A stretch of DNA of 64,000 nt from a candidate division WOR-3 bacterium (lineage in GTDB: Bacteria; Hydrothermota; Tepidihabitantia; SM23-42; JAOAFX01). Where the stretch lies: positions 13,658 through 77,657 of the forward strand of contig JBDRWD010000001.1 of the NCBI GenBank assembly GCA_039802205.1, read 5' to 3'. Position 1 is the stretch's first letter. The number at the start of each line of letters is the position of its first letter. The notes beneath the pieces are model-generated. The model was not told the origin of the DNA. It did not search any database and saw only the letters and a list, made by a program, of their open reading frames with translations. A program made the position numbers and the translations under genes. Shown in pieces: positions 1,240 through 40,246 of this stretch.

Positions 1240-1857
1240 TCAAAATACGTTACGGATGACTCTTCGTCCCACAATACGAAATTCACCGGAAAGGACCAGG
1301 TTTATCGCTTCGGTATAAATCCTATGTTCTTCCTTAAGAATCCTTTCAGCAAGGGTTTCGGGAGTATCATCATCAAGGACCGGAACTACGGCCTGGGTAA
1401 TAATCGGTCCTCCATCCACGGTTTCATCCACAAAATGGACAGTGCAACCCGAATATTTGACGCCATATTCAAAGGCTTTTTTTTGTGCTTCTAAACCGGG
1501 GAAGGCTGGAAGCAGAGAAGGATGAATATTCAAAATTCTATTAGGAAAGGCACTCAGCAATGGTTTTTTTATAATCCGCATAAACCCTGCCAGGCAGACC
1601 AGATAAACATCATGCTCTTTTAAAACCCGCACATAATTTTCTTCATATTCAGGCAATAACCAGGTCTTTTTGGGACCAGGATCAAGATAGAGCGCCTTTA
1701 TGTTATGGGCGCGTGCAATCTCTAATGCTCGGGCATTAGGATTATCGCTCAAGACTAAAACAAGATTAGCAATGCAGGTACCATTCTCAATATTTCGTAT
1801 GATGGCTTCTAAATTTGACCCGCGTCCAGAAGCAAGAACGGCGATATTTCTATTCAT
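1240..1857 (-). CDS. purN: phosphoribosylglycinamide formyltransferase
   Basis: N-terminal VLASGRGSNLEAI, and HPSLLPAFPG/HFVDE motifs typical of the PurN formyltransferase fold. Confidence 0.85.
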   Translation of the reverse strand: MNRNIAVLASGRGSNLEAIIRNIENGTCIANLVLVLSDNPNARALEIARAHNIKALYLDPGPKKTWLLPEYEENYVRVLKEHDVYLVCLAGFMRIIKKPLLSAFPNRILNIHPSLLPAFPGLEAQKKAFEYGVKYSGCTVHFVDETVDGGPIITQAVVPVLDDDTPETLAERILKEEHRIYTEAINLVLSGEFRIVGRRVIRNVF

Positions 1858-1953: not shown

Positions 1954-2709
1954 ATGAATCGATTCGACCCCTTAAAGAAGGCAGATGAAATTCGGTCGGT
2001 CGTGGTGCGGGATAGGCAACGGAAATATTATCGAGTCACGCGCCCGGGCAAATGGTACGGAGGTATCGCCACCGCCGATTGTTGCGGTTGTAATTTGAAT
2101 TGCGTTTTCTGCTGGAGCAATAAACCCCGGGACAATCCGGATAAGATTGGCAATTTCTATTCCGCAGAAGAAGTTGCTGCCAGTCTTATCCGTTGTGCCC
2201 AAAAATATAATTACCGTTATGTCCGCATAAGCGGTAATGAACCAACGATTTGTAAAGAACATCTGCTTTCGGTATTATCAATTATTAGCAGAACGAAACT
2301 CATCTTTATTCTTGAAACCAATGGAACACTTATCGATAAAGATTTTATTAGAGAGCTTACCCCATTCTCTAATCTCCATATCCGCATTTCTTTAAAGGGG
2401 ACGACACCGGAGGAATTTGCCATGCTCACCGGTGCAATACCCGAGAGTTTTAATTTAATTTTAGATAATTTAAATAATCTGGTAAATGCTAACCTAAGTT
2501 TCAATCTTGCTGTAATGCTTTCATTTAGTCCGGACAAAAATGTTCTCTTGTTGAAAGAAAGATTGGGAAGGATATCTCGACGCATAATAGCCGATTTTGA
2601 AGAAGAATATGTTTTTCTCTATCCCCATGTTGTAAAGCGTTTGAAAGAAAACGGTATAAGGCCTCTCATTGCTTATACGCCTGATGGGGTCCCCCGGGAA
2701 CTCATTTGA
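1954..2709 (+). CDS. radical SAM protein, family unassigned
   Basis: CNLNCVFC (Cx3Cx2C) motif near the N-terminus and a glycine-rich SAM-binding region (RISGNEPT). About 250 aa. Confidence 0.65.
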   Translation: MNRFDPLKKADEIRSVVVRDRQRKYYRVTRPGKWYGGIATADCCGCNLNCVFCWSNKPRDNPDKIGNFYSAEEVAASLIRCAQKYNYRYVRISGNEPTICKEHLLSVLSIISRTKLIFILETNGTLIDKDFIRELTPFSNLHIRISLKGTTPEEFAMLTGAIPESFNLILDNLNNLVNANLSFNLAVMLSFSPDKNVLLLKERLGRISRRIIADFEEEYVFLYPHVVKRLKENGIRPLIAYTPDGVPRELI

Positions 2710-3812: not shown

Positions 3813-5003
3813 ATGCGTTTATATGAGTTTGAAGGTAAAATGTTACTCCGGCGAAAAAAAATTCCGGTACCGGAGGGCGTGGTCGTGGATAGGAATTCAT
3901 TCTTTGAACTTGATAAAGTGGTGTATCCAGTGGTCATTAAAGCCCAGGTTTTCTTAGGTGGACGGGGAAAAGCCGGGGTCATTCAATTCGCAAATGACCG
4001 GACCGAAGCCGAGGAAAAGATAAATGCGTTGTTGGGTAAAAAACACGGACCATTTGTTATAGAAAAAGCCCTGGTTGAAAGAAAACTAGACATCGCTCAG
4101 GAATTGTATGTTGCTGCCCTCATTGATCGGATTGTCCATAAACCACTTTTGATGGTGTGTAAACGTGGGGGTGTTGATATCGAAGAAATTGCCCAAAGCA
4201 CCCCCGGGGAGATTAAAAAATATTATTTTGACGCAGGAGAAAAGATATTAGAGCATCAGGCACGAAAAATTGCAGGTGAATTGGAATTCAAAGGTAATTT
4301 ATTGACCGGAATAGCAAACGTGATTTTTAATCTCTATAATCTCTTTCTTGATTATGATTGCAAACTCGTTGAGATTAACCCCCTGGCAATAACCCAAGAT
4401 CAAAGGATTTTTGCTCTGGATGCGAAAATTGACTTGGATGAAGATGCGATGTTCAGGCATCCCGATTTGAAAGAGATGGGAATAGTGGCAAGAAATGAAA
4501 TAGGCGAATTGACTGAAAGAGAAAAATTAGCAAAGGCTGCCGGAATTCCGTATGCGGATGTGGACCCAGAGGGTGATATTGGTGTATTCCCGGGTGGAGC
4601 AGGTTTTGGCATTGCGGCGCTGGATTTAATAACCCATTATGGAGGCAGACCTGCCAATTTTATGGACTCGGGCGGTGCTCCAACCCAAGAGAAATTGAAG
4701 GCGATGCTGGGTTTATTGATGGATAATCCTAAAGTGAAGGTGATTTTTGGGGCACGCTTTGGTGGCATTTCCCGCTGCGATGACTGGGCAAAAGCAGTTG
4801 TCCAATATGTAATTGAAAATAAACCACAAAAACCGATGATAATGAGAATGGCAGGGAATATGGAAGAAGAAGGAAGAAGGATCTTTGAGATGGCAAAACG
4901 CGAAAATCCAGAATTGTTCAAAAATATAAAGGTTTATGCCTATGATACACCTATTGAAGAAGTAATTAAAGAGGCAATTCGGGTGGCGAGGGAGATACCT
5001 TAA
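3813..5003 (+). CDS. sucC: succinyl-CoA synthetase beta subunit (ATP-grasp)
   Basis: N-terminal LYEFEGKMLLRRKKIPVPEG (ATP-grasp) and C-terminal CoA-ligase domain. The alpha-subunit gene follows immediately. Confidence 0.8.
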   Translation: MRLYEFEGKMLLRRKKIPVPEGVVVDRNSFFELDKVVYPVVIKAQVFLGGRGKAGVIQFANDRTEAEEKINALLGKKHGPFVIEKALVERKLDIAQELYVAALIDRIVHKPLLMVCKRGGVDIEEIAQSTPGEIKKYYFDAGEKILEHQARKIAGELEFKGNLLTGIANVIFNLYNLFLDYDCKLVEINPLAITQDQRIFALDAKIDLDEDAMFRHPDLKEMGIVARNEIGELTEREKLAKAAGIPYADVDPEGDIGVFPGGAGFGIAALDLITHYGGRPANFMDSGGAPTQEKLKAMLGLLMDNPKVKVIFGARFGGISRCDDWAKAVVQYVIENKPQKPMIMRMAGNMEEEGRRIFEMAKRENPELFKNIKVYAYDTPIEEVIKEAIRVAREIP

Positions 5004-17952: not shown

Positions 17953-18046
17953 TGTAGGGCAAACCTTCAGGTTTGCATTATCAACTTAAAAAGGGGCGGC
18001 TTTTGCCACCCCTTTTGTTTATCGCGGCTTTAAGCCGCTCCTACCA
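17953..18046. repeat. Cloverleaf-type palindromic intergenic element, copy A. It fills the gap between the convergent MoxR and T9SS genes and contains a bidirectional terminator-like hairpin.
   Basis: Outer stem TGTAGG…CCTAC(C)A. Inner hairpins GCAAACC-TTCA-GGTTTGC, AAAAGGGG-(12 nt)-CCCCTTTT and GCGGC-TTTAA-GCCGC. The 3' motif CCTACCATTT is shared with copy B. Confidence 0.55.
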
Positions 18047-18056
18047 TTTGCTGGAT

Positions 18057-20039
18057 TTACCGCACTATCGTCATCGTCTTGGTCGCAGTTCCTTCAGGTG
18101 TTTCAACCCGCACAAAGTAAATACCATTGGGAAGTTCCTGATTGTTTAAGTTGAGTGTATATGTGCCTGCTGATTTAGACTCGTTCACAATATTGTCAAC
18201 CAATCTGCCACTTGCATTATAAATAGATACCTTCACAATGCCCGGATTCTTTGTGGTATATGAAACTTTTGCAGACCCATTTGAGGGATTGGGGGAGAGG
18301 GCCACATCTATCCGCGCAGTAGGTTTTTCTTTGTGCTCCCAGATTCCATAATTCTCATCCGGGAATGATAATCTTGGGTCAGCATCGCTGGAGTAGGTAT
18401 AATATCGCATCCATACAATGGCTGGGAACCATTGATTGTGTGTAGCATTCCACATCGTTGTCATATCTATTTGATAAAAACCATAAGGCCTGCCAAAGTC
18501 GAAAGAAGAAACTAAGGTATCTATTACATTTGCACCGACAACTTCAAAGTAATTGGGATCATATTTGGACATGTTAGCAAGGGCTGTAGAATCATTGAGA
18601 GTTCGTAAAGCAAAAGGAATATAATAGTTGTCTCCATTATGGTCTTTATAGTAAGACAAGTGATAATAATCTGGTCCGGTGTTATTACCCGCATACTCAC
18701 CATCACAGGATATTACCGGAGTTTTCGTCATAACGACATCACCATCAACTAATTGTGATATAAAATTTCCACCGCTTGCCATCCGGAACAGTATTCTAAC
18801 ATTATAATCAGTTGATGTCCAAGGATATCCGAATGCAACAACAACACTTGGCCGATTATAGTTATGAGATGCTGACACATCAATAGCGTCAATACTTTGC
18901 GAATGCACATATTCGGTCTCTATCCAGGAACCTGGTGCACCTGAGATGCTTTCCAAGATGACAAGTGAATTATTAGACTTTCTGGCAACGAATACAAATT
19001 TATCGGTTGATTGGGAAGCAGCACCTTGGGCACCTTTGGGTATTGCATACACGCTTGATGTCCATGAGGAAGTATAAACAGTTGACCAATTCTGCCCCTG
19101 ATCCGTAGATTGTGCAATTACCACATTACCCGTGGTATAATTATGGTAAATGCAGCAGATACGATGCTCACTCCAAATATGTTCAACACTGAGGTGTGGT
19201 TGTATACAAAAATCGCTTGTGTTTTCTACATTGGAGATCATAGTTTGTGAAGAATCATTCAAGTTGCTAAAACGTCTGACCCATATATCACCTGAAGTAA
19301 TCGATGAAATATATGTATAGGCTTCATACAAATACTGATTCCCAGGGTCGATCACCACGTCAAAAACAATACGATCAGCAGTTGTCGAACCATATGAATG
19401 CCATAAACTCCAAGTATTTCCGTAGTCTGTTGAACGCCAAAGAAACATTGTATCATTACCAATCTCTGAAGTTGAGTTGGAAGCGGTTACGAATACATAA
19501 TTGTTGAAAGAGGCGACTGATGGAGTGATGTGATCTACAAGACTTAGATCAACATAACCCATGTCCCAGCCTGTTCCCTGTCTATTATCATCACGGTCAA
19601 ACCATTTTGGGTTATTAAAATTACTGCCACTTTCTTCATATTCGTTCTTTGGAAGTGTTTTTTCTCTTTCTAAATATTTAATATAGTTTTCTGCCTCGTT
19701 CAAGATATAGGTGAATTCAGCATAATTCCAATCGGTTGGTTGCGATTGTAGTTTTTGCCACAGTTTTTGGAGCCTAATTCTGTATCCAACATATTCATTT
19801 TCTTCAGCAGAATAAACATCTTCGGGTAATCTGGGTAACAGGTTATTAAACCTCCGCTGAAGATCCGTGAGTGTAGACTGTTTTTCATTTATTGACATAC
19901 CTTGCCATTCTTTTGCAAGGGCATTCTTTTCGCTTGTCCAGCCGGTAGGCACTATGATAACATTATCATCTTTTTCTACCGCAAAAAGCGGCGCCAACAA
20001 TATTACAAATAACACTAATGCCTTAATTGTTCTTTTCAT
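18057..20039 (-). CDS. secreted BNR/Asp-box repeat protein with a T9SS C-terminal sorting domain
   Basis: Signal peptide (MKRTIKALVLFVILLAPLFA). Asp-box motifs (STDYGNTWS, STDQGQNWS). C-terminal Por_Secre_tail-like segment (…PNPSNGSAKVSY…VSIYNASGRLV…NGIYFVRVETPEGTATKTMTIVR). Confidence 0.7.
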   Translation of the reverse strand: MKRTIKALVLFVILLAPLFAVEKDDNVIIVPTGWTSEKNALAKEWQGMSINEKQSTLTDLQRRFNNLLPRLPEDVYSAEENEYVGYRIRLQKLWQKLQSQPTDWNYAEFTYILNEAENYIKYLEREKTLPKNEYEESGSNFNNPKWFDRDDNRQGTGWDMGYVDLSLVDHITPSVASFNNYVFVTASNSTSEIGNDTMFLWRSTDYGNTWSLWHSYGSTTADRIVFDVVIDPGNQYLYEAYTYISSITSGDIWVRRFSNLNDSSQTMISNVENTSDFCIQPHLSVEHIWSEHRICCIYHNYTTGNVVIAQSTDQGQNWSTVYTSSWTSSVYAIPKGAQGAASQSTDKFVFVARKSNNSLVILESISGAPGSWIETEYVHSQSIDAIDVSASHNYNRPSVVVAFGYPWTSTDYNVRILFRMASGGNFISQLVDGDVVMTKTPVISCDGEYAGNNTGPDYYHLSYYKDHNGDNYYIPFALRTLNDSTALANMSKYDPNYFEVVGANVIDTLVSSFDFGRPYGFYQIDMTTMWNATHNQWFPAIVWMRYYTYSSDADPRLSFPDENYGIWEHKEKPTARIDVALSPNPSNGSAKVSYTTKNPGIVKVSIYNASGRLVDNIVNESKSAGTYTLNLNNQELPNGIYFVRVETPEGTATKTMTIVR

Positions 20040-20165
20040 TTTTTTCTCCTTTCTTTATTTCTACTTATTCACTTTTCAGCCTTTGGCTGAAAGACAACCT
20101 AAACAAATGGAGATATATTATTTTATTTCTCCTTGTAATCACACCTCCTTTCTTAAAAAACTTGT

Positions 20166-20354
20166 TCATTTTTTCTTTGCAATATACTTTTTTCCACATA
20201 CCGGACAGAACTGCGCCATCGGATGTCGGATAGAAGAACCACAATGGGGGCAGGAATCTATCAACCTGGTTTTGCAACTCGGACAGAACCGTTCATGCTT
20301 ATCAACCGTTGAAAACCCACACCTTGGACAGATATAAATTCCATTTTTCTTCAC
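20166..20354 (-). CDS. double zinc-ribbon small protein (62 aa)
   Basis: Four CxxC pairs (CPRCG…CPSCK…CPHCG…CPVCG). Lies between the STAND regulator gene and the BNR cargo gene on the same strand. Confidence 0.45.
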   Translation of the reverse strand: MKKNGIYICPRCGFSTVDKHERFCPSCKTRLIDSCPHCGSSIRHPMAQFCPVCGKKYIAKKK

Positions 20355-20392
20355 TTAATATTATATTTATAACCTATTAGGAAGTCTATTAG

Positions 20393-23300
20393 TCATTTTC
20401 CTTTAATCTCTTCATATAGTTTTATTGTTTCTTCTGAAGGTTGACAGTTATACTCTCTTTTAAAAAGATCCGCGCATTTCTTATATTGCTCTATTGCCTT
20501 CGATTTTTCATTGTTGAGAAGATATGTCTTCATTAAAAACCTATGTGCCTCCTCATCAAGCGGGTCTAAAATTAAAACTTTTTGTAGATTTTCAATTACC
20601 TCTTCAAATTTCAGCTTTTTTAGATAGATTTCGGATAATAAAAAGAGCGCCTGGCGATATTGGCGATTTATCTTTTCGCGTAGTTCTTCAACCCATCGTC
20701 CATAACAATCCTCAAGAAAGGTGCCTTTATAAAGTTTTAATGCATCCTTTAATTTCTCTTCGGCAATGTGAATCTTACCCTGCGAATATAAAATTTTAGC
20801 ATCATTTAACAAGCCAGAAAACTCAATTGCATCAATCCATACATTATCAAGGAAATAAACACCATCTTCATAACAAAAGTAATCCTTTCCTATTATTTTC
20901 TTTAACTCAGAAAGATATACATGAAAGTTGTTTGTAACCTGCTTTTTAGAAAATTCAGGCCACAAGAATATTCCGATTTCGTCCCGGGTTAATCTTTTTC
21001 CTTCAATTTTTGATATTAATAAAATAGAAAAGAAATCTCTCAATTTCTGCCAGTTTAGAAGTTTTATAGAGAGATCCTCCGAATTTAATTTTTGAATATC
21101 CATCCGGCCGAATGTAAATATTCTCAAAATCGGTGGGTTTATCTTTTTAGTATCAGGTTCTAATTTTCCCACCCAGCCCAACATTTTAAATTTTTGGACA
21201 ATAAATTTCAATTTTCTCAAGTGCTCCCTTCTATAAGGATTATTTTTTAACAATTTAGAGCAGAAATATAACATAAAGACTAATTCCGAATAATCTTTTT
21301 GCTCTTCGGCAAGGATTAATGATTTTTTTATTAATGCATTTCTGGTTTCTTTTTTGTTATTTAAGCAAGCAATACCCGCGATTAAATAATAGAGTGGATG
21401 TTCATTATATTTTTTACCGAATACCTTTTTAATATCTTCAAATAATGTTTTTATTTCATCTACCTTGTTAAGAACTGACAGAATTAAACCTTCGTATACC
21501 ATCAGGGTAAATTGGAGGTTCTGATTATGCATTCCTTTAGCAAGTTCAATGCCTTCCTTAAATAGCTTTAATGCCCGTTCGTATTCGCCTATAAAAAACA
21601 AAGCAATACTGTAATATTTTAATAACCAGATTAGGTCTGATTGGTTATTTGTCTCCTGGCATAATTTAATACCTTTTTGGAATTCTTCAACCGCTTGATT
21701 AAAATACCCCTGGAATAGATAGCAGGCACCAAGATTAAGACAAGCCATTATCTGTTCCCTAATCATTCCACTCTTAATACTATAGTTCCGATGTTGCAGC
21801 AGATATTTTACACCTTCTTCAAAATCACAATTATTGATATAAGAAATTCCAAGATTTCCTTGGGCTGATGCGACGAGAGAAGGACTACCTATCTTTTCTG
21901 CAATCTGTAAGGCCAGCATCCGGTATTCAATCGCCTTATTATATTCACTACGAGTGTTAAAGATTGAGCCTAAAAGATTGTAGATATAGTATTGCGAAAT
22001 AAGAGGAGTTTTTTTCTCTATTTTGTTTTTCAATGTAAGTCCTATGTCAAGTGCACTATCTAACTCACCAAGATACTTTAACGCAAACGCCTTATTGGTC
22101 ATAATATCAAAAACTAAATCACTATAGGCATCCAATTTTAATTTCTTTATTTGGGCTAATATTTCATCGGATCTCCTTATTGCTTCATTATATTTTCCTG
22201 CTCGGACCAATCCATTGATAAGAATTGAATATACTTCTAAGAACCGTCTTTTTACTGGTATTTTTGCATCCTTGTAGAGTTTTAAATATTTTTCTGCCAA
22301 TTCTATGGCATCATTGTATATACCGATTTTTAGTTTAATATGAGAGTAATGTGCGATAATATCCAATAATTTTTTGATTGAAAATTTTTTTATCTTTTCT
22401 GCAATATTTAAGCCCTGCCCTAAAAATTTTCCCGCGCGTGTGAAATCTCTTAAGTTTTCAGAAATTTTAGCATTGTGCAACAGATAATCTACCATCCAAA
22501 CTTTGTAAATTCCTGCTTTATCAAAATGTAACAGCGCATTATATTTGTCATTTTTCTTCGCAAAAAATTCGCCCATTTTTTTATGTAAAGTGAGTTTTCT
22601 ATTTTCAGGAATATTGTCATAAATTACCTCTCTGATAATAGGATGACTGAAAACATAATTTTCTTGCTCTTTTCTTATGAGACCCCTGCGTGTTAGGTCA
22701 TTTAAAAGATTAATCTTCAATTTTAAAATGGACGAATTAAATCGTTCGCCAACAACAGAAGCAGTCTCAAGAAATTCAATCTGTTTTTTACTCAATCCTG
22801 CAAATCTTATTTTCAAAATATCGGGTATACCTTTAAAAACTGGTATTTTTTCGTAATTTGGTATGGTGCACCATCTTTCTTCTAACTCATTATAATAAAT
22901 AACACCCTTTTCTAAGAGGGTCAACAAATATTCTTTAAGAAAGAGGGGATTACCGTCTGTTCGAGTAAACAGCCAATCAAAAAATTTCCCTTCTAAATTG
23001 TTGGCAAAAATGATTTCATTTAAATGTAATATCTCATCTTTACCAATATTTCCGAGCGTAATTTTTATTAGATTTTTTGATTGTAATTTATATATAATTT
23101 TAGCATTGTCTGAAGTCAAGATCATTAAAATTGGCAACCCATCCAAACGATTTATGAGTTGATTCAATAAAATAAAGACATCTTCTTCAGCATTTTGAAT
23201 TTCTTCTAAAATAAAAATAATGAAAGAGAATCGGGAAAGTTTTTCTATGAATTCGATGAAATGGTGAGACATTTCTGAGAAATCAGTTTTTTTAGACACA

Positions 23301-23680
23301 GGTTCATACGGAAAATAAACTTTTAATGAAGGTATCACCTCCGAATAATTATTATAAATTTCCCGACCAATAACCTGGACGATTTCCCTTATTTGACGTC
23401 CTGCTCTATTTAGGTAATTATTTATAATTTCCGTGAATAATAAATTTGCCGAAGTTCGGGGTTGTAATACGATATTAAAAGTAATCGGGGCATACTGAAT
23501 GTTTTTTAAAAATTCCACCACCAATCTGGTTTTGCCAATACCGGGCTCACCACTAATAACAACACATTTTCCCTGGTAATTAAAAGCCGATTGCAGATTT
23601 TCCTGCAAAATTTTTAACTCGTTGTTTCTGCCAATAAAAGGAAGTTCTGAAAAATTTTTACTTTTATTGGAGAACATCAT
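20393..23680 (-). CDS. STAND-type signal-transduction ATPase with domain order AAA(AAA_16-like)-TPR-wHTH-BTAD, the reverse of SARP/AfsR regulators
   Basis: N-terminal Walker A (VISGEPGIGKTRL) with a Walker B/hhhhE-like stretch. A long TPR array. A C-terminal OmpR-like start (ILRIFTFGRMDIQ) followed by a BTAD-like helical region (…ALKLYKGTFLEDCYGRWVEELREKINRQYRQA…LDPLDEEAHRFLMKTYLLNNEKSKAIEQYKKCADLFKREYNCQPSEETIKLYEEI). Confidence 0.7.
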   Translation of the reverse strand: MMFSNKSKNFSELPFIGRNNELKILQENLQSAFNYQGKCVVISGEPGIGKTRLVVEFLKNIQYAPITFNIVLQPRTSANLLFTEIINNYLNRAGRQIREIVQVIGREIYNNYSEVIPSLKVYFPYEPVSKKTDFSEMSHHFIEFIEKLSRFSFIIFILEEIQNAEEDVFILLNQLINRLDGLPILMILTSDNAKIIYKLQSKNLIKITLGNIGKDEILHLNEIIFANNLEGKFFDWLFTRTDGNPLFLKEYLLTLLEKGVIYYNELEERWCTIPNYEKIPVFKGIPDILKIRFAGLSKKQIEFLETASVVGERFNSSILKLKINLLNDLTRRGLIRKEQENYVFSHPIIREVIYDNIPENRKLTLHKKMGEFFAKKNDKYNALLHFDKAGIYKVWMVDYLLHNAKISENLRDFTRAGKFLGQGLNIAEKIKKFSIKKLLDIIAHYSHIKLKIGIYNDAIELAEKYLKLYKDAKIPVKRRFLEVYSILINGLVRAGKYNEAIRRSDEILAQIKKLKLDAYSDLVFDIMTNKAFALKYLGELDSALDIGLTLKNKIEKKTPLISQYYIYNLLGSIFNTRSEYNKAIEYRMLALQIAEKIGSPSLVASAQGNLGISYINNCDFEEGVKYLLQHRNYSIKSGMIREQIMACLNLGACYLFQGYFNQAVEEFQKGIKLCQETNNQSDLIWLLKYYSIALFFIGEYERALKLFKEGIELAKGMHNQNLQFTLMVYEGLILSVLNKVDEIKTLFEDIKKVFGKKYNEHPLYYLIAGIACLNNKKETRNALIKKSLILAEEQKDYSELVFMLYFCSKLLKNNPYRREHLRKLKFIVQKFKMLGWVGKLEPDTKKINPPILRIFTFGRMDIQKLNSEDLSIKLLNWQKLRDFFSILLISKIEGKRLTRDEIGIFLWPEFSKKQVTNNFHVYLSELKKIIGKDYFCYEDGVYFLDNVWIDAIEFSGLLNDAKILYSQGKIHIAEEKLKDALKLYKGTFLEDCYGRWVEELREKINRQYRQALFLLSEIYLKKLKFEEVIENLQKVLILDPLDEEAHRFLMKTYLLNNEKSKAIEQYKKCADLFKREYNCQPSEETIKLYEEIKGK

Positions 23681-23813
23681 TTTTGCCTGTATTATTATAC
23701 AAATTTATATTAATTTGTCAAGAAAAATAAAAACTATGCCTTCTCCATTTTTATTGGGTGCTTTCTTTAGGGTAAATAGATTCGTAATGACATTACTTGA
23801 TCTGCATCGGATT

Positions 23814-23944
23814 CTGTAGGGGCAGAGTTTACTCTGCAAGAATCAAGGTTGAGCGAGCTCAACCACTACAGGAAAAATGATTGATTGTAGTGGCAGACCT
23901 CGGTCTGCAGATATCTAAAAAACCGAGTAAACTCGGCCACTACA
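23814..23944. repeat. Two tandem cloverleaf-type palindromic elements (E1 23814-23870, E2 23885-23944) between the C25 peptidase 3' end and the STAND regulator 5' end
   Basis: E1 has outer stem TGTAG…CTACA with hairpins GCAGAGT-TTA-ACTCTGC and GGTTGAGC…GCTCAACC. E2 has outer stem TGTAGTGGC…GCCACTACA with hairpins GCAGAC-CTCG-GTCTGC and CCGAG-TAAA-CTCGG. The E1 hairpin core GAGTTTACTC is the reverse complement of the E2 core GAGTAAACTC. Confidence 0.55.
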
Positions 23945-23959
23945 CGCTTTGCGAATTTA

Positions 23960-26839
23960 CTACCTGATAATCGTCATTATTTTGCTAATGGTCGTTTCCG
24001 AAGATTCCAATCGCACAAAATAGATACCGCTTGGCAATTCATTGTTCATTAATTTAATGGTATGTTTTCCAGCCGGAATAACCTCATCGATTACATTCTT
24101 TATCAACCGTCCAGTTATATCGTAAAGCGAAATTTTGATTCTGTCTTCTTCTTTATTCGTATATGTAAGAGATGCCCATTCAGAACTGGGATTGGGTGTA
24201 ATAATGAACGAAATATTTTTGGATTGTTCTGATTCATTTTCACCTATTCCAATCTGCCAATCATTTCGGTCAAAATAAACTCCGCCATAGACCGGTGAAT
24301 AACTCACATAGACACTTCCATAAACTCCATTGCCTAGGTATTCAATTGATGGTTTTACAGCGTTTCTTGGACGATAATCACCAAATTGCACGGGTGTTGA
24401 CCAGGAACCGTAATAATCACGCCAGGTATAACGGAATCTGCAGCTTGAACCGTCTCCATAAGCATAGATTATTGCCTGACCTCCATTCATCTTCGCAGTT
24501 ATATCAGGGCAGCAAGCAGAAATGGTTGTATCTTCTCCACCCGGAATTCCCCAGTACCAGGATGCACCACCATCATAAGAAGTTTCATATTTGCAGTAAT
24601 AAGGGACCGCAGCACCGGTGCATTCAAAAACAACCAGGATTGTATCTTTATAGGCACCGATTGCAGTGAATTGTGAATTTGCACCAGCAGATAAACTCAA
24701 TACTTTTATGTTAGCACTGTAACGGTAATAATTCGCCTTGGTCACAGTTATTACGACCGTGCCTGAATACTGTGGGGTAATCGGAATGTTTACTGGTGCA
24801 CCCGTAGCAAGTGCCGCACCAATAATCTCTCCATTGGCAGTTAGTGCAATCACTGACCCACTCGTTGCAGTAACTGTGAAATATGTCTGACCCGGTTCAA
24901 TTGTCATTGGATGGTTTACAGTCAGACGTAATGGCGTTCTTGAATAGAGTGTAATAAAACAATCACCGAAATGGTGAAATTCACGCCAGACAAGGCTTTT
25001 GCTTTGTGGGTTTCCAGGCCAGGATGAGGCAGAGAGATAATATTTCCCCGAGGTCATTGCCAGACAAGGTCTCAGGTCACTTGAACCGATTATCCTACCA
25101 AATGTTGGATAACCAGGGTCAAACTGTGGCCAGAGACAATCATAGATTCCCCAGATATATGCGTCATTGCAGAATGATGGGCTTACTGTAGAAGCACAAT
25201 TAACACCCAATGCGCCACACTTTCTACGATGGAATTTTTCAGAAAAGCACTCATAACTCCACTGATAGCGCCCGGTCAAACAATTTGTTGAATAAACAAA
25301 AGGGGGAAGTTGGTTTGTAAGACCATCAAGGTCACTGTTTGTAAAAGAAGGATGTTGCCACCCGAATTCATAACCATGGTCGCGGTGTTGAACCAGAAAT
25401 GCACCGGAATTTATTGCATTTCTTATTCCGATATTATTGCCATTGCTCCACCAGGTTGAATCGTGCTGATTTAGCGTGTCATCAAGCCATCCGACATTAT
25501 ACCAGTATTGAACAACTGAACGTGTGTTTGTCGCAGTTGACCAAGCACAACCTATACTCGGCGAACCACCCGAAACTGTATATTGGCGATTTGGTGATTT
25601 GCCAAGATTGTGGATAAAAAATCCTCGAATTACCTCAGAACACAGTTGGAACCATCGGTCTGTTTCCCAGGAACAGGCGACAAGGGGGTTATTATAGAAA
25701 TTTGTAGAAGTTGGTGGATTTCGTTCATAATTAAGAAATTTATGTATTATTGTATCCAATTGGGCATTATTCTGGGCACAGATACGGCCAATGTGCAATT
25801 CAGGCAATGTATCATTATTGAAATCTACATACCAGTTATCAGAGACACCATCAGGGTAGGGTGGAAGAGCAAAACTCGGTGATGTTATTCCATATACCCT
25901 TCCAGACGATGGATAATCAGATAAAAACAAGACCGCAACTGGCGCTGGATTCCAGGTGTTATAGGCATTCCGCAGAAAATTTTTAATGCTTGCCGAATCA
26001 GAACCGCCGACTTCGCTCAGGGTATACACTTCAGTAGATATGCCCTGGAGTTTACGCCATCTCTTTATTGTATCTGCCCAGGCTTCAAATGTTGCATCGT
26101 TGGGAACAATTATGATATATTCATAACCAGCACGGCTATTAATTCTTTCGGGTGAATAGAAATCAATCTTTGGCAGTGAATTATAATTCAGAATATGATT
26201 TTCAAGTATGGGCTCCCAGAATCTGCTGCGAAGACGGTCTTCGCCAAAATGTCCTGTGCCACCGATAAAATCAATCTTTATTTTGATGTCTTTATATACA
26301 ATCAAATCTTTTGTCACCGGGTTATACTGAAATGGTGTAACACCAAGTAATACAACATCAACCCCTCTGATCTCCCGAATAGGGGAGAGGCAGACCGGAC
26401 TATTCGGGTAATACTCATTTTTGCTATAGATATTCATATCTTTGACATAACGCATTGGTTTATTATCACTATCCATAGGGATATTAGGCGCTGGTGTCAC
26501 TTCAATATTATAAAATGTGTCGGTTCGTGTTTCAAGGATGGTCAATTTTGGAGTAGAACCTTCTGGTATTGCGATATATCTTCCAGTTCCGAGAATATTA
26601 GGTGCGCCTTCTTTATTTGGTAAAAAGAATCCTGGCACACTAAATGTTTTAGTTATTACACCATCAACCTCTTTTTCTTCTATCACCATTTCATGCATAC
26701 TGAAGATTATCTCAACCCCCTGGGGAGTCTCTTTGATTAAGTTGAATAGTGGATACCTTCCCCAGTTGTCTTTAATCTTTATCACCTCACCAGAGTTAAT
26801 GCTAATGATTGACATAATTATTATCGCAATTCTATTCAT
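23960..26839 (-). CDS. secreted gingipain-like cysteine peptidase (peptidase C25 family) with a BNR/ACCPD accessory domain and a T9SS C-terminal sorting domain
   Basis: C25-like core (…YEYIIIVPNDATFEAWADTIKRWRKLQGISTEVYTL…VAVLFLSDYP…). Candidate catalytic dyad His (LVQHRDHGYEFGW) and Cys (VYSTNCLTGRY). C-terminal …PNPSSEWASLTY…ISLYDITGRLI…SGIYFVRLESSETTISKIMTIIR. Confidence 0.6.
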   Translation of the reverse strand: MNRIAIIIMSIISINSGEVIKIKDNWGRYPLFNLIKETPQGVEIIFSMHEMVIEEKEVDGVITKTFSVPGFFLPNKEGAPNILGTGRYIAIPEGSTPKLTILETRTDTFYNIEVTPAPNIPMDSDNKPMRYVKDMNIYSKNEYYPNSPVCLSPIREIRGVDVVLLGVTPFQYNPVTKDLIVYKDIKIKIDFIGGTGHFGEDRLRSRFWEPILENHILNYNSLPKIDFYSPERINSRAGYEYIIIVPNDATFEAWADTIKRWRKLQGISTEVYTLSEVGGSDSASIKNFLRNAYNTWNPAPVAVLFLSDYPSSGRVYGITSPSFALPPYPDGVSDNWYVDFNNDTLPELHIGRICAQNNAQLDTIIHKFLNYERNPPTSTNFYNNPLVACSWETDRWFQLCSEVIRGFFIHNLGKSPNRQYTVSGGSPSIGCAWSTATNTRSVVQYWYNVGWLDDTLNQHDSTWWSNGNNIGIRNAINSGAFLVQHRDHGYEFGWQHPSFTNSDLDGLTNQLPPFVYSTNCLTGRYQWSYECFSEKFHRRKCGALGVNCASTVSPSFCNDAYIWGIYDCLWPQFDPGYPTFGRIIGSSDLRPCLAMTSGKYYLSASSWPGNPQSKSLVWREFHHFGDCFITLYSRTPLRLTVNHPMTIEPGQTYFTVTATSGSVIALTANGEIIGAALATGAPVNIPITPQYSGTVVITVTKANYYRYSANIKVLSLSAGANSQFTAIGAYKDTILVVFECTGAAVPYYCKYETSYDGGASWYWGIPGGEDTTISACCPDITAKMNGGQAIIYAYGDGSSCRFRYTWRDYYGSWSTPVQFGDYRPRNAVKPSIEYLGNGVYGSVYVSYSPVYGGVYFDRNDWQIGIGENESEQSKNISFIITPNPSSEWASLTYTNKEEDRIKISLYDITGRLIKNVIDEVIPAGKHTIKLMNNELPSGIYFVRLESSETTISKIMTIIR

Positions 26840-27904: not shown

Positions 27905-29407
27905 TCATTTTTGAATTATAGCAATCGTTTTTGTTAATGTTCCTTCAGGTGTTTCCATTTTAACAAGGTAGATACCATCCGCCAGTTCTTTTCCATTTAG
28001 CGTTATTGCGTGGGCGCCAGCATGTTTTCTTTCGTTTACAATAGTTCTTACTAATCTACCGGATATATCATAAAGTGAAAGTTTAACATTTCCCGTTTTC
28101 TTAATTGAAAAAGAAATGTTTGTTATGCCATTTGAAGGATTGGGTGAAATCTTGATTTTATCCGATTTTGCACTATAGATTTCATTCTCTGCAATTCCTG
28201 CCCAGTCATTACGGTCAAAGTATGCCGCACCATAGATTGGAGAGTAACTCACATAAATACAACCATAGATATCATTGCCAAGATATTCAATCGCGGGCTT
28301 TATATTGTTTGGTGGTTGGTAGTCACCAAACTGCACCGGTGTTGTCCAGGAACCATAATAATCGCACCAGGTATATCGGAATCTGCGGCTACCACTTGTT
28401 CCATAGGCGTATGCGATACCTTCGCCACCATTGTCTCGTGCGGCAACATCAGGACAACAGGCAGCGGTAGTGGTGTCAGTCAGATTGTAATAAAACCAGG
28501 TATTGCCACCATTATAGGATGCTCCATACTGGATGTAATATGCTACTGCATAGCCACTCCTTTCGTAAACCGTTATTGCTGTATCATGATATGCGCCAAT
28601 CGAAGTAAATCGCGAATTCGGACCCGCAAAAATTGTGGAAAGGCCGGTTCGGTTGCCGTAATAGTCAAACCCATCAATTTGCAGATAGTCATTGTTCTTG
28701 ATATAAGAGGCGAAGGCATAATAATTGGAATATCCTTCATTGGTGCAGGCATCAAGCCCCCGACTGGCATTTGTAACGCCGGTTGAGATTTCATACCAGT
28801 TCACACCCGCAGTGTCACTGTAGAAATATTTTAAGGAGCCATTTTTAGTTATAGCAAATAGATTCTGGTATTGATCATCGAAGTCGTGGTCGCTGACCAG
28901 TGCTATTTCTTTAATAGTATCAACGGGATTTGTGACGACCAAGTCTATATATTGAGCACCGTTATTAAAGTTAACCTGTGCACCATCAGATACACGAAAT
29001 CTAAAAAACCGTACCACATGTGGCGTCCAACTATTCGCGGCAAGATAGTAATGATTACCTGTAGTAGTGAGGCTGAGTTTCGGATTCGGCAGAATTCCAT
29101 TTGCAACAAATGGGTTAGCTTTATAAATCCACGATGCACCTCTATTTGTTGAAAAATACATGTTGATTGAGGTTTGATTACTGAAGTAGTAGTAACACGC
29201 AGCCATGATATGTGAAGTTGGTCTATGTATGTCAAGGGAAACGCAACAGAGAGAGTCTATATCACCTATGCGCACATCATTTCCCCATCGGTCCTCAAGC
29301 GGAACAGGATGTGGTTGGTCATATTCTGTTGGTTCATTTGATTCTGCTCGGGCAGTTACAAAAAATCCCGACAGAAAAATTATTGTACAGATTTTTTTGT
29401 TATTCAT
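27905..29407 (-). CDS. secreted BNR/Asp-box protein with the conserved ACCPD domain and a T9SS C-terminal sorting domain
   Basis: Signal peptide (MNNKKICTIIFLSGFFVTARA). Asp-boxes (STNRGASW, SYNGGNTW). A roughly 150-aa block nearly identical in pattern to the C25 protein (FTSIGAYHDT…ACCPD…RFRYTW.DYYGSW.TPVQFGDY…FDRNDW). CTD …ISPNPSNG…LSLYDISGRLV…DGIYLVKMETPEGTLTKTIAIIQK. Confidence 0.65.
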   Translation of the reverse strand: MNNKKICTIIFLSGFFVTARAESNEPTEYDQPHPVPLEDRWGNDVRIGDIDSLCCVSLDIHRPTSHIMAACYYYFSNQTSINMYFSTNRGASWIYKANPFVANGILPNPKLSLTTTGNHYYLAANSWTPHVVRFFRFRVSDGAQVNFNNGAQYIDLVVTNPVDTIKEIALVSDHDFDDQYQNLFAITKNGSLKYFYSDTAGVNWYEISTGVTNASRGLDACTNEGYSNYYAFASYIKNNDYLQIDGFDYYGNRTGLSTIFAGPNSRFTSIGAYHDTAITVYERSGYAVAYYIQYGASYNGGNTWFYYNLTDTTTAACCPDVAARDNGGEGIAYAYGTSGSRRFRYTWCDYYGSWTTPVQFGDYQPPNNIKPAIEYLGNDIYGCIYVSYSPIYGAAYFDRNDWAGIAENEIYSAKSDKIKISPNPSNGITNISFSIKKTGNVKLSLYDISGRLVRTIVNERKHAGAHAITLNGKELADGIYLVKMETPEGTLTKTIAIIQK

Positions 29408-39800: not shown

Positions 39801-40246
39801 GCTGGGGTTTTGGGGTAGCCCGAATACATTGAATCTACTTCAACAATAGTAGCATCACCAATTCGGGCATAGATGTAAACCTTCCTGGTGCCGGTACTTA
39901 CGATTCTTTCCCACACCTGGATAACCGGGCGGGTAGCGGCAAGAGGCGTTGCCAGTTGAATACTACCATTGTTCACCCCCCAAACATTATCAGTATCAAC
40001 TTCCACATTATAGCCACGTAAAGTTCCATTCCATAGCAACCGCTGACGATAAACGCTATTACGACCACTACCCCACCTCAAATCTTCCCAAGCAATATAC
40101 GCGGTGGTATCCCTGGCCGCGACCGATGGATATATCTCACGCCGGTATCCTTGATCATTATCCCAGACATAGATAGAATCGATTCCAAAGAGGGTTAAAG
40201 GCAAGAACATCAATAGCCAAACAAAATTTCTCATATTACCTCCCAA
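36839..40246 (-). CDS. very large (1135 aa) secreted protein with a T9SS C-terminal sorting domain; function unknown
   Basis: Signal peptide (MRNFVWLLMFLPLTLFG). C-terminal …VHPNPFTDKIEIFL…EIYDVSGRIV…QGIYFCKFTALEKSEVVKIIYLK. Confidence 0.65.
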   Translation of the reverse strand: MGGNMRNFVWLLMFLPLTLFGIDSIYVWDNDQGYRREIYPSVAARDTTAYIAWEDLRWGSGRNSVYRQRLLWNGTLRGYNVEVDTDNVWGVNNGSIQLATPLAATRPVIQVWERIVSTGTRKVYIYARIGDATIVEVDSMYSGYPKTPAMDCRDNGEFVVSFTYYYPPQNVYAIYHKRYNIGGNFIHGSYIEPNLRMRGRSVSRCAFCDSGYVVVYVDSATTGDSLRSIYLQYRGISSNIIDTKIKVSRPGTDGRNELAPDVAVNQNGFVVVTWTYEYSATDPDVYARTFQMRPGLDTLMPVSPSDFAIANSTAPEFGPKVTVFPNNDYMIVYTKETNYNKGVYAKVSISGTLKPECIINNDQKPQAWDQYAGDVACRWNDTCIVAWMNLPDTNISKSYLAREVFCRTYYRAPSSTYGILEKSSEVIDPTPRGPGWLWYYDDENYDDPLTVDWNEDPIDEEDSVYLPIDSAIVDQFDEFNQVRVKYHLTVRDTLPRSQKSGRGLSSYKQVIVNLGFRLNDTPAGVISTEDQYELINYINSGKPILLTGNDFGFMYNGTTLFEKFHANYVSDGQPFDIGNIDTLYGQPGTFAQNETLAYQYRKEADNYVDIISPRPEAKLILADWETEKEWLAGRCVGWGNYWKDLRDNGSTIYCSFSPNGIKDRHHPHTAQEFIRRCLGFLGMVCPPEPITAIYCSTNTATEGSVILRWRVVSDDSLKESAAGPYKLKFSRKKITSEVAFNDSCEEYYQKWNTKDSVVGSWYRVVLEGLPPMDTLIFALKVSDEDTLWGALGAEPRAIVSGDSVTPHYLKVGSTSNPYGYVKDFSVKYEFLDRRAKNDTGTDYDSLFVTWDYPMNPPWFYVGFARCNLYTEGDLFIYVDTKPGGADSTVPYNGTSGRSAFQPVPPDSFKPDYCLIVDNGSTVVYKKYVSTKDGRGSWIDTTFYGRVCEDSVINNYLYTELYIPYNNMGYTAGNPFKLVVLMTQENTNYIINAFPIFNPLGTYKTIGQYYSWGSDGLTSGKVPARKSTIGIGETTFNPKKQIKNLKLAVHPNPFTDKIEIFLPTMEIPGCQASLEIYDVSGRIVKTFNLKSCRASLPTSVSWDGTDDKGEIVSQGIYFCKFTALEKSEVVKIIYLK

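What the first reader, a model, noticed from the sequence alone, without database searches (positions are those of the whole stretch)
20166..23680. Reverse-order SARP-like STAND regulator (AAA-TPR-wHTH-BTAD) with a co-oriented double-zinc-ribbon mini-gene, directly upstream of the BNR cargo gene
Canonical SARP/AfsR regulators run wHTH-BTAD-NB-ARC-TPR. Here the ATPase and TPR come first, and the OmpR-like winged helix plus BTAD lie at the extreme C-terminus. The next gene on the same strand is a 62-aa protein with four CxxC pairs. Only 126 nt downstream of it is the first T9SS cargo gene, with a stable hairpin in that spacer. This looks like a dedicated sensory regulator module for the secreted-enzyme island.
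Basis: partly seen in the sequence, partly recalled or inferred. Interest (0 to 1): 0.55.

Follow-up and report, generated by a model that had tools for sequence, protein, structure and literature searches.

The report
MalT-like regulator with tail-end SARP domain
A large ATP-driven sensor-regulator from an uncultured WOR-3 bacterium carries its DNA-binding "SARP" module at the tail instead of the head, and next to it lies a conserved promoter that it probably switches on to express a tiny zinc-ribbon protein and, likely, a secreted enzyme; it is a tidy, testable variant of a known kind of regulator, not a new kind.

Summary
On the minus strand lie a 1095-aa gene (23680..20393), a 62-aa gene with four CxxC pairs (20354..20166), a 126-nt spacer, and a T9SS-tailed gene with Asp-box motifs (20039..18057).

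The large protein runs AAA_16 STAND NTPase, about 12 TPR-like repeats, an OmpR-type winged helix, then BTAD. Pfam misses the winged helix. A profile search (AfsR E about 1e-21) and a confident AlphaFold model (TM 0.82-0.85 to the AfsR SARP domain) confirm it.

The reversed order is real but not rare. Of the 149 SARP modules closest to this one in 1.84 billion representatives, 105 sit at the C-terminus of larger proteins.

The new result is a promoter starting right after the regulator's stop codon: 7-nt direct repeat, 5 nt, repeat, 8 nt, TATAAT, 5 nt, start codon of the mini-gene. This geometry holds in about 16 WOR-3/Stahlbacteria loci. The repeat sequence changes (CTAATAG to GTTAAGA) in the most divergent orthologues.

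It matches the SARP-box rule (3' repeat 8 bp from -10) and recalls afsR-afsS.

The regulator, mini-gene and a downstream secreted-protein gene stay together in every orthologous locus examined. Control of the wider "island" is not supported.

Function is inferred, not shown.

The parts
23694..23721 (-). Promoter of the regulator gene: TTGACA, 16 nt, TATAAT, ending 13 nt before the ATG. It has a full -35 and so looks activator-independent.
   Evidence: 12/12 consensus match. The same TTGACA...TATAAT is present upstream of the orthologues in L001, L003, L004 and L005.
20393..23680 (-). Regulator gene, 1095 aa: STAND NTPase, TPR repeats, winged helix, BTAD.
   Evidence: ORF. Pfam domains. Exact match to NCBI MEO0161261.1 from a candidate division WOR-3 MAG. 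Full-length AF2 model with pLDDT 87.6.
22616..23680 (-). NOD module, residues 1-355: P-loop NTPase (AAA_16 at 14-187, Walker A GEPGIGKT at 44-51, acidic Walker B-like ILEE at about 158-161), followed by helical and winged-helix subdomains.
   Evidence: The best full-length Foldseek hit is the solved STAND-TPR protein 6mfv (E 2.9e-13), followed by Avs3.
21161..22606 (-). TPR-like helical-repeat region, residues 359-840 (about 24 helices). This is the presumed sensor and autoinhibitory arm.
   Evidence: TPR_12 and TPR_MalT hits. Helix pattern in the AF2 model.
20834..21127 (-). OmpR-type winged helix-turn-helix, residues 852-949. The recognition helix is at 912-930 (KKQVTNNFHVYLSELKKII).
   Evidence: Profile hit to AfsR and EmbR. 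AF2 model plus Foldseek. No Pfam Trans_reg_C hit.
20396..20833 (-). BTAD (bacterial transcriptional activator domain), residues 950-1095.
   Evidence: PF03704, E 5.9e-21. Fold match to AfsR and EmbR.
20374..20392 (-). Predicted operator: two CTAATAG direct repeats (20392..20386 and 20380..20374) separated by ACTTC, giving a 12-bp period. It starts directly after the regulator's TGA stop codon.
   Evidence: It is the only zero-mismatch match in the window. 18 of 19 positions are invariant in six loci whose synonymous sites are near saturation. The repeat becomes GTTAAGA, with identical geometry, in L010, L017 and L161.
20360..20365 (-). -10 hexamer TATAAT of the mini-gene promoter. It lies 8 nt after the 3' repeat and 5 nt before the GTG start, which implies a leaderless mRNA. 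The -35 position holds only TAGACT, inside the repeat box.
   Evidence: The same 5-6 nt spacing between -10 and start codon occurs at three other genes of the window that do have a TTGACx -35.
20166..20354 (-). Mini-gene: a 62-aa double zinc ribbon protein with four CxxC pairs, an HP(M/L)AQ(F/Y)CPVCG motif and a Lys-rich tail.
   Evidence: PF12773. Conserved in every orthologous locus examined whose contig reaches the site. dN/dS 0.06-0.25.
20142..20150 (-). Orphan perfect Shine-Dalgarno-like AAGGAGGTG, 15 nt after the mini-gene stop. No conserved start codon follows it.
   Evidence: Present in the window, L001, L003, L005, L006, L009 and L012. In the predicted fold it pairs with UAUAUCUCC. 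Its role is unexplained.
20074..20092 (-). Stem-loop CUUUCAGC-CAA-AGGCUGAAAG region (8 bp) in the spacer between mini-gene and cargo gene. It has no U-tract.
   Evidence: Every orthologous spacer has an 8-10 bp hairpin at the equivalent place, with a different sequence. The scan did not call it a terminator.
18057..20039 (-). T9SS cargo gene, 660 aa: signal peptide, Asp-box (BNR-like) beta-propeller region, and a Por_Secre_tail C-terminal domain. Its own SD, GGAG, is at 20050..20047.

Best explanation
Shown:
- The 1095-aa protein is a MalT-type (AAA_16) STAND ATPase with a TPR region. Its output domain is a complete SARP module (OmpR-type winged helix plus BTAD) placed at the C-terminus.
- Directly after its stop codon lies a conserved promoter with a perfect -10 but no usable -35. 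Two 7-nt direct repeats occupy about -38 to -20 instead.
- The start codon of a conserved 62-aa double-zinc-ribbon gene follows 5 nt after the -10.

Inferred:
- In the resting, presumably ADP-bound, state the NOD and TPR parts hold the SARP module inactive.
- An unknown ligand sensed by the TPR region, together with ATP binding, releases or oligomerises the protein.
- Two SARP modules then sit side by side on the two repeats. As in AfsR at the afsS promoter, they would replace the missing -35 contact for sigma region 4.
- This would switch on a leaderless transcript encoding the zinc-ribbon protein.
- No terminator or promoter is detectable in the 126-nt spacer of this window, so the transcript most likely continues into the T9SS cargo gene. 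The spacer hairpin and orphan SD would modulate stability or translation.
- The regulator itself is made from a separate consensus sigma-70 promoter.
- The zinc-ribbon protein is most likely a small partner or feedback factor of the regulator, in the manner of AfsS. This is the weakest step.
For: Architecture:
- Domain hits and models.

Operator and promoter:
- The geometry repeat(7)-5-repeat(7)-8-TATAAT-5/6-start holds in the window, L001, L003, L005, L006, L011, L012 and L124. It holds with a 7-nt gap in L009, L015, L093, L131, L144, L149 and L160, and with GTTAAGA repeats in L010, L017 and L161.
- The repeats and the -10 are invariant, while 6 of the 8 gap positions vary.
- Synonymous sites of the adjacent mini-gene are 50-90% changed.
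- Published SARP rule: direct repeats, the 3' repeat 8 bp from the -10, and the box centred at -29.5 overlapping the -35 (PMC10936776). Here the box centre is about -29 if the start codon is +1.
- The regulator's own promoter and three leaderless-type promoters elsewhere in the window have TTGACx at -35. This promoter does not.
- Recognition-helix residues differ between CTAATAG loci and GTTAAGA loci: T to I, S to H, K to A/S.

Linkage:
- The regulator, mini-gene and a downstream secreted-protein gene stay together in every orthologous locus examined. This spans regulators as low as 32-34% identical to the window protein; in L011 the contig ends inside the mini-gene.
- All 7 genuine extra matches to the operator in metagenomes lie upstream of this mini-gene.
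- The DZR profile also matches the N-termini of 7 related cyclase-AAA_16-TPR STAND proteins, a fusion link.
Against: - There is no transcript, transcription start site, binding or ligand data.
- The repeat period is 12 bp, not the 11 or 22 bp of characterised SARP boxes. Side-by-side docking may therefore differ.
- The -35 position reads TAGACT in this window (4 of 6), so some activator-independent transcription is possible. Read-through from the regulator gene is also possible, because no terminator lies between them.
- In L009 and L012 the spacer contains its own TTGAC(A/G)-type promoter, so co-transcription of the cargo gene is not universal.
- The co-variation of helix and repeat rests on only two clades.
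- DZR domains are fused to many kinds of signalling proteins, so the fusion argument is weak.
Confidence: 0.6

Rival explanations
1. The regulator and operator work as in the main explanation, but only the zinc-ribbon gene is the direct target, exactly as afsS is for AfsR. The spacer hairpin ends or strongly attenuates the transcript. The T9SS cargo gene is transcribed on its own, and its conserved position reflects shared ancestry or an indirect link.
For: - A hairpin is present in the spacer of every locus.
- L012 and L009 carry TTGAC(G/A)-N16-18-TATAAT-like promoters inside the spacer.
- The downstream gene changes identity in L010, L017 and L161, while the mini-gene does not.
- The cargo proteins are only 21-28% identical to the window's.
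Against: - In this window the spacer has no promoter-like site of at least 9/12 on the coding strand and no hairpin with a U-tract.
- The gene after the mini-gene encodes a secreted protein in all loci.
Confidence: 0.22
2. The direct-repeat box is recognised by something else, such as another tandem-binding regulator or an alternative sigma factor. The STAND-SARP protein would act at distant promoters, and its adjacency to the box would be incidental.
For: - No binding data exist.
- The 12-bp period departs from the SARP norm.
- Only 64 kb of the genome was visible, so other sites cannot be excluded.
Against: - The box keeps its position next to this regulator gene in about 16 loci.
- It changes sequence together with the regulator's recognition helix.
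- The 8-bp offset from the -10 matches SARP promoters.
- No genuine copy was found away from the regulator/mini-gene pair.
Confidence: 0.1
3. The protein binds the box but represses. By sitting over the -35/spacer region it would block RNA polymerase until a signal removes it.
For: - The box overlaps the core promoter.
- The -35 position is 4 of 6 in this window.
Against: - In L010, L017 and L161 the -35 position has almost no match to TTGACA, as expected for an activator-dependent promoter.
- BTAD-containing SARPs characterised so far are activators, and the box position matches theirs.
Confidence: 0.05
4. It is an Avs-like anti-phage STAND NTPase whose C-terminal domain is an effector, not a housekeeping transcription factor.
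For: Avs3 is the second-best full-length fold hit, as expected for any STAND-TPR protein.
Against: - No PADLOC defence model matches beyond a weak generic TPR hit.
- The locus sits in conserved chromosomal synteny with aminotransferase, MoxR and sugar-metabolism genes in several genomes.
- The C-terminal domain is a DNA-binding SARP module, not a nuclease or protease.
Confidence: 0.03

Closest known systems
AfsR-afsS of Streptomyces coelicolor (large SARP of the NB-ARC STAND type and its adjacent small-protein target)
   Same: - A SARP module (winged helix plus BTAD) of the same fold, TM 0.82-0.85.
- The module is coupled to a NOD ATPase and TPR repeats.
- The target promoter has two direct repeats overlapping the -35, with the 3' repeat 8 bp from the -10 and the box centred near -29.
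- The direct target is a small protein gene. From my own recollection, untested here, afsS encodes about 63 aa and lies just downstream of afsR.
   Different: - The domain order is inverted: NOD-TPR-SARP instead of SARP-NOD-TPR.
- The NTPase is AAA_16/MalT-type, not NB-ARC.
- The repeat period is 12 bp, not 11.
- The small protein is a four-CxxC zinc ribbon, unrelated to AfsS.
- The target mRNA is leaderless and is followed by a T9SS cargo gene.
- The host is an AT-rich WOR-3 bacterium, not an actinomycete, and no secondary-metabolite cluster is involved.
MalT / LAL regulators (large ATP-binding LuxR-family regulators)
   Same: - The order is AAA_16-type STAND NTPase, then a TPR-like sensor (TPR_MalT hit), then a C-terminal DNA-binding domain.
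- The expected logic is ligand- and ATP-dependent multimerisation that activates a promoter lacking a good -35.
   Different: - The C-terminal DNA-binding domain is a SARP module, not a LuxR/GerE helix-turn-helix (no PF00196 hit).
- The predicted sites are two close direct repeats abutting the -10, not MalT boxes.
PH0952-type STAND-TPR proteins (PDB 6mfv) and PknK-like AAA_16-TPR signalling proteins
   Same: It is the best full-length structural match (E 2.9e-13 over 718 columns). It shares the NOD plus TPR sensor layout.
   Different: Those proteins carry other effector domains or none. None has a C-terminal SARP module.
Uncharacterised 'BTAD domain-containing putative transcriptional regulator' proteins with NTPase-TPR-BTAD order
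   Same: They have the same architecture. At least 26 representatives at the 50%-identity cluster level share both the N-terminal NTPase and the C-terminal module.
   Different: None is characterised in the papers I retrieved, and no target promoter has been proposed. The zinc-ribbon partner was found only in the WOR-3/Stahlbacteria subgroup.

Membership tests
SARP family (Streptomyces antibiotic regulatory protein-type activators) | OmpR-type winged helix-turn-helix DNA-binding domain | tested here: met
   The profile aligns to AfsR 45-264 and EmbR 32-256. The AF2 model (pLDDT 91.7) matches the whole AfsR SARP domain at TM 0.82-0.85. Pfam Trans_reg_C itself gives no hit at E<=0.1.
SARP family (Streptomyces antibiotic regulatory protein-type activators) | BTAD immediately after the winged helix | tested here: met
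   PF03704, 75.8 bits against a cut-off of 22.1, residues 950-1092.
SARP family (Streptomyces antibiotic regulatory protein-type activators) | SARP module at the N-terminus, as in all small, medium, large and SARP-LAL classes described | tested here: not met
   The module occupies residues 852-1095 of 1095. The published classes all place it N-terminally.
SARP family (Streptomyces antibiotic regulatory protein-type activators) | Target promoter with direct repeats whose 3' repeat lies 8 bp from the -10 | tested here: met
   CTAATAG-5-CTAATAG-8-TATAAT at 20392..20360. The gap is 8 nt in 11 distinct loci and 7 nt in the Stahlbacteria-type loci. The rule is quoted from PMC10936776. This is a sequence pattern only; binding was not tested.
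SARP family (Streptomyces antibiotic regulatory protein-type activators) | Repeats spaced 11 or 22 bp apart | tested here: not met
   The start-to-start spacing is 12 bp in every locus.
SARP family (Streptomyces antibiotic regulatory protein-type activators) | Binds the repeats and activates transcription with RNA polymerase | not testable with these tools
   This needs EMSA or footprinting and in vitro or reporter transcription.
STAND NTPases, MalT/AAA_16 clade | P-loop NTPase with Walker A and an acidic Walker B | tested here: met
   AAA_16 scores 53.4 bits against a cut-off of 32.6. GEPGIGKT is at residues 44-51. The Walker B region reads FIIFILEE, where relatives have DD.
STAND NTPases, MalT/AAA_16 clade | NOD followed by a helical-repeat sensor, with overall STAND fold | tested here: met
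   The AF2 full-length model has pLDDT 87.6. The top PDB hit is 6mfv STAND-TPR at E 2.9e-13, followed by Avs3. Global TM is low (0.2-0.3), as expected for a flexible multi-domain protein.
STAND NTPases, MalT/AAA_16 clade | Nucleotide-dependent switch and oligomerisation | not testable with these tools
   This needs biochemistry.
MalT/LAL regulators | C-terminal LuxR/GerE-type helix-turn-helix | tested here: not met
   There is no PF00196 hit. The C-terminus is winged helix plus BTAD.
AfsR-type large SARPs | NB-ARC-type NOD | tested here: not met
   NB-ARC is not among the Pfam hits at E<=0.1. AAA_16 and AAA_22 hit instead.
Double zinc ribbon (DZR, PF12773) proteins | Two consecutive zinc ribbons, four CxxC pairs | tested here: met
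   41.8 bits against a cut-off of 27.3. The 8 Cys are invariant in 9 orthologues.
T9SS type A cargo | C-terminal Por_Secre_tail sorting domain plus an N-terminal signal peptide | tested here: met
   PF18962 scores 47.5 against 27, and TIGR04183 scores 47 against 23. The N-terminus MKRTIKALVLFVILLAPLFA is hydrophobic by inspection.
BNR/Asp-box (sialidase-like) beta-propellers | Repeated SxDxGxTW Asp-boxes on a propeller fold | tested here: inconclusive
   Pfam BNR_2 scores 23.3 bits, below the 31.4 cut-off. There are two Asp-boxes, at residues 203 and 311. The family profile hits GH74 xyloglucanase at 8e-8 and sialidases at about 1e-4, over short stretches only.
Avs-type anti-phage STAND systems | Match to defence-system models and location in defence islands | tested here: not met
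   PADLOC gives only a generic TPR hit at 1.1e-5. The locus is syntenic with housekeeping genes.

The most novel reading that the evidence does not exclude
The 62-aa double zinc ribbon protein may be more than a passive product. It could be an obligatory partner that binds back to the STAND regulator's TPR or NOD region, possibly in a zinc- or redox-dependent way. Together they would form a self-reinforcing two-protein switch, a non-actinobacterial, architecturally inverted counterpart of AfsR-AfsS. This switch would gate expression of a T9SS-secreted glycosidase-like enzyme in response to an environmental polymer or its breakdown product. It would be the first target promoter, partner and output defined for the large, uncharacterised class of STAND regulators with a C-terminal SARP module.
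Probability: 0.2. Interest if true: 0.65.

Novelty: new variant of a known kind. Interest (0 to 1): 0.45.

Why it matters
STAND regulators with a C-terminal SARP module are numerous in uncultured and non-actinobacterial lineages. I found no paper describing one: published SARP classifications list only N-terminal modules.

This locus gives a concrete hypothesis for the class. It offers a 19-bp operator, a -10 at SARP-typical distance, a leaderless target gene and a likely secreted output. The hypothesis can be tested with a purified 250-residue domain and a 60-bp DNA fragment.

If confirmed, it would show that the sigma-adaptation mode seen for AfsR does not depend on where the SARP module sits in the protein. 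It would also give a handle on how WOR-3 bacteria control a T9SS-secreted enzyme. It does not reveal a new kind of system.

Tried and rejected
- Pfam Trans_reg_C on the full protein gave no hit. The winged helix was resolved by profile and structure instead.
- The first homologue search suggested the reversed order was rare, because most AAA_16+BTAD hits were canonical. The exhaustive search with the C-terminal module overturned that.
- The search for related loci with the 25-sequence alignment failed for lack of a conserved stretch. It succeeded with 9 sequences.
- A search for further copies of the operator found one exact site in the window, and matches with 3 mismatches were at chance level. 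In metagenomes, 69 of 76 loci were chance AT-rich matches and 7 sites were genuine, all at the mini-gene. No wider regulon was found, but only exact matches were searched.
- Rfam on 17900-24100 gave nothing above chance.
- RNAalifold on five spacers gave a weak, uninformative consensus (-3.2 kcal/mol), because the spacers align poorly. Per-sequence folds were used instead.
- A small ORF after the orphan SD (ITRRNKIIYLHLFRLSFSQRLKSE in the window) was considered and rejected. It is interrupted after 8 codons in L005 and has no conserved start.
- The anti-phage STAND reading was rejected.
- Two literature searches for a described C-terminal-SARP STAND regulator found none. The library lacks many subscription papers, for example the original STAND classification, so earlier mention cannot be excluded.
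- An N-terminal DZR in the window's second STAND gene (32994..36710) is absent.

Full report
**What is there**

Three co-oriented genes lie on the minus strand:
- a 1095-aa ORF at 23680..20393;
- a 62-aa ORF at 20354..20166, with a GTG start;
- after a 126-nt spacer, a 660-aa ORF at 20039..18057.

The 1095-aa protein is identical to NCBI MEO0161261.1, 'BTAD domain-containing putative transcriptional regulator', from a candidate division WOR-3 MAG. The 62-aa protein is MEO0161262.1, 'zinc ribbon domain-containing protein'. NCBI taxonomy now calls this phylum Caldifarciminota.

**Domains of the regulator**

Pfam gives AAA_16 at residues 14-187, TPR_12/TPR_MalT at about 576-723, and BTAD at 950-1092. 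All three families score above their cut-offs except TPR_MalT. Walker A is GEPGIGKT at residue 44, and the Walker B region is FIIFILEE.

Pfam Trans_reg_C does not hit, so the claimed winged helix was tested three ways:
- The NCBIfam AfsR model aligns residues 893-1092 to AfsR 64-265.
- A profile of 20 C-terminal modules hits the AfsR PDB chains at about 1e-21 (profile positions 39-258 to AfsR 45-264) and EmbR at 3.6e-13.
- An AlphaFold2 model of residues 839-1095 (pLDDT 91.7) has the strand-helix-helix-helix-wing order. It superposes on the entire AfsR SARP domain (8k60: TM 0.82-0.85 over 247 columns, rmsd 2.6-2.8) and on EmbR.

The C-terminus is therefore a complete SARP module.

A full-length model (pLDDT 87.6, pTM 0.56) shows these parts in order: NTPase, helical and winged-helix subdomains (to about residue 355), about 24 repeat helices (359-840), a short disordered linker, and the SARP module. 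Its best PDB match is the solved STAND-TPR protein 6mfv (E 2.9e-13), then Avs3. No anti-phage defence model matches.

**Is the reversed order unusual?**

In the first search, most distant AAA_16+BTAD proteins had the SARP module at the N-terminus. An exhaustive search of 1.84 billion representatives with the C-terminal 249 residues gave a different answer. Among the 149 best hits:
- 69 carry the module at the C-terminus of proteins of at least 900 aa;
- 36 carry it at the C-terminus of proteins of 400-899 aa;
- 6 carry it at the N-terminus;
- 38 are shorter than 400 aa.

Sampled members are AAA_16-TPR-BTAD, NB-ARC-TPR-BTAD, NB-ARC-BTAD, REC-TPR-BTAD, and even SARP-NB-ARC-TPR-SARP. At least 26 representatives share both ends with the window protein.

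The order is therefore real but is the norm for this branch of SARP modules. What is missing is characterisation. Published SARP classes (small, medium, large, SARP-LAL) all have the module N-terminal, and I found no paper on the reversed type.

**The mini-gene**

It matches DZR PF12773 (41.8 bits against 27.3) and has CxxC at residues 9, 24, 35 and 50. A homologous ORF follows the regulator in every orthologous locus examined whose contig reaches the site. Gene callers missed it in L001 and L004.

The eight Cys and an HP(M/L)AQ(F/Y)CPVCG motif are invariant or nearly so. dN/dS is 0.06-0.25. The family is small and was seen only in WOR-3/Stahlbacteria (8 clusters).

A profile of it also matches the N-termini of seven cyclase-AAA_16-TPR STAND proteins that were among the regulator's own distant hits. 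This is a weak fusion link between the two gene products.

**The main new observation: a conserved promoter/operator**

Reading the minus strand from the regulator's TGA stop codon:

TGA CTAATAG ACTTC CTAATAG GTTATAAA TATAAT ATTAA GTG (20395..20352)

The same layout is found as follows: 7-nt repeat, 5 nt, the same repeat, 8 nt, TATAAT, 5-6 nt, start codon.
- With the 8-nt gap: L001, L003, L005, L006, L011, L012 and L124.
- With a 7-nt gap: L009, L015, L093, L131, L144, L149 and L160.
- With GTTAAGA (or GTTAATA/GTTAAGA) repeats: L010, L017 and L161, whose regulators are among the most divergent (about 34% identity for L010 and L017).

Across six CTAATAG loci, both repeats and the -10 are invariant and 6 of the 8 gap positions vary. 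Synonymous sites in the adjoining gene are 50-90% substituted.

The distance from the regulator's stop codon varies from 0 to about 200 nt. The distance to the mini-gene start does not vary. The element therefore belongs to the mini-gene.

**Comparison with known SARP promoters**

The published description states that the direct repeats have their 3' repeat 8 bp from the -10. The afs box spans -40 to -19, is centred at -29.5, and overlaps a poor -35. Two SARP protomers bind it side by side and offer sigma region 4 an alternative dock (PMC10936776).

If transcription starts at the start codon here, the box spans about -38 to -20, centred at about -29. The one clear departure is the 12-bp rather than 11-bp period.

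**Support for an activator-dependent, leaderless promoter**

- The consensus scan finds TAGACT-17-TATAAT here. In L010-type loci the -35 position has essentially no match.
- The regulator's own promoter is a perfect TTGACA-16-TATAAT, conserved in L001 and L003-L005.
- Three other genes in the window have TTGACx-17-TAnnnT followed 5-6 nt later by ATG. Leaderless transcripts with this spacing therefore seem normal in this genome, and the mini-gene promoter differs from them precisely in lacking the -35.
- Recognition-helix residues differ between CTAATAG and GTTAAGA loci...QVTNNFHVCLSELKKI... against ...KMINNFHVCLHQLKAI.... This suggests co-evolution but rests on only two clades.

**Downstream gene and spacer**

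The 660-aa protein has a signal peptide, two Asp-boxes and a Por_Secre_tail domain. A family profile weakly matches GH74 and sialidase propellers.

A homologous T9SS-tailed protein follows the mini-gene in L001, L005, L006, L009, L012 and L160. These are only 21-28% identical to the window's. In L010, L017 and L161 a different secreted protein follows.

In this window the spacer has no promoter-like site on the coding strand and no terminator-like hairpin, so co-transcription is the simplest reading. L009 and L012, however, have promoter-like TTGAC(A/G) sites in their spacers.

The spacer folds to -21.3 kcal/mol (z = -2.1). Every orthologous spacer carries an 8-10 bp hairpin 20-45 nt before the cargo start, with differing sequences.

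A perfect Shine-Dalgarno-like AAGGAGGTG just after the mini-gene stop is conserved in seven loci, with no start codon after it. I could not explain it.

**Scope of regulation**

Only one exact copy of the box exists in the 64-kb window. In metagenomes the only genuine matches precede the mini-gene.

The window does hold several T9SS cargo genes: a C25 peptidase at 26839..23960, a 500-aa gene at 29407..27905, and an 1135-aa gene at 40246..36839. The C25 gene is absent from the orthologous loci. No evidence links these genes to this regulator.

**Verdict**

The best-supported model is a MalT-like STAND switch with a SARP output domain that activates the adjacent leaderless zinc-ribbon gene, and probably the T9SS cargo gene, from a SARP-type direct-repeat promoter. 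This is an inverted, non-actinobacterial analogue of afsR-afsS. The architecture and the promoter anatomy are shown. Binding, activation, the ligand and the role of the zinc-ribbon protein are inferred.

Noticed in passing
window 20142-20150 (- strand); also L001, L003, L005, L006, L009 and L012 spacers: A perfect Shine-Dalgarno-like AAGGAGGTG(A) is conserved just after the mini-gene stop. In L001 it overlaps the stop, and in L006 it lies inside an extended ORF. No conserved start codon follows it. In the window it can pair with UAUAUCUCC (20148..20109). Its function is unknown.
   Followed up: partly
window genes 1240..1857 (-), 1954..2709 (+), 3813..5003 (+): Each has TTGACx-N17-TAnnnT followed 5-6 nt later by ATG and has no Shine-Dalgarno. 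Leaderless mRNAs therefore appear common in this WOR-3 genome, alongside genes with strong GGAGG sites.
   Followed up: partly
window 23800-23950 (- strand); L015 about 9560-9690; L160 about 60-120: Pairs of GC-rich hairpins bracketed by TGTAGTGG...CCACTACA-like ends lie in intergenic DNA upstream of the regulator promoter. In Stahlbacteria loci they lie upstream of the mini-gene promoter. They look like REP- or MITE-like palindromic elements. One doubles as a terminator-like hairpin with a T-run after the C25 gene (23938..23921).
   Followed up: no
window 32994..36710 (+): A second AAA_16 STAND gene in the same window encodes Guanylate_cyc-AAA_16-TPR (1238 aa). It has a leaderless-looking promoter and no N-terminal zinc ribbon. 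It is flanked by another T9SS-tailed gene (36839..40246).
   Followed up: partly
window 24257-24487 and 28202-28432: A 231-nt stretch is 73% identical between the C25 peptidase gene and the 500-aa Por_Secre_tail gene. This is a shared domain in two neighbouring T9SS cargo genes.
   Followed up: no
L008 7040-7110; L015 9330-9440: Short tandem repeats follow the regulator's stop codon directly in Candidatus Stahlbacteria loci: GATGGTAGAT-like units in L008 and AAATACCTAAA/AAATGCCTAAA units in L015. They lie between the regulator and the mini-gene promoter.
   Followed up: no
L013, L014, L016, L018: Paralogous NTPase-TPR-SARP regulators (32-47% identity) in the same WOR-3 MAGs have no zinc-ribbon gene downstream. 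L013 and L018 instead have a long palindrome (TTTCAAGATTTCAAAATTTTGAAATCTTGAAA) after the stop codon.
   Followed up: no
L001 10289-10495; L004 3419-3607: The conserved zinc-ribbon mini-gene was not called by the gene predictions stored for these contigs, so its distribution is under-counted in protein databases.
   Followed up: yes
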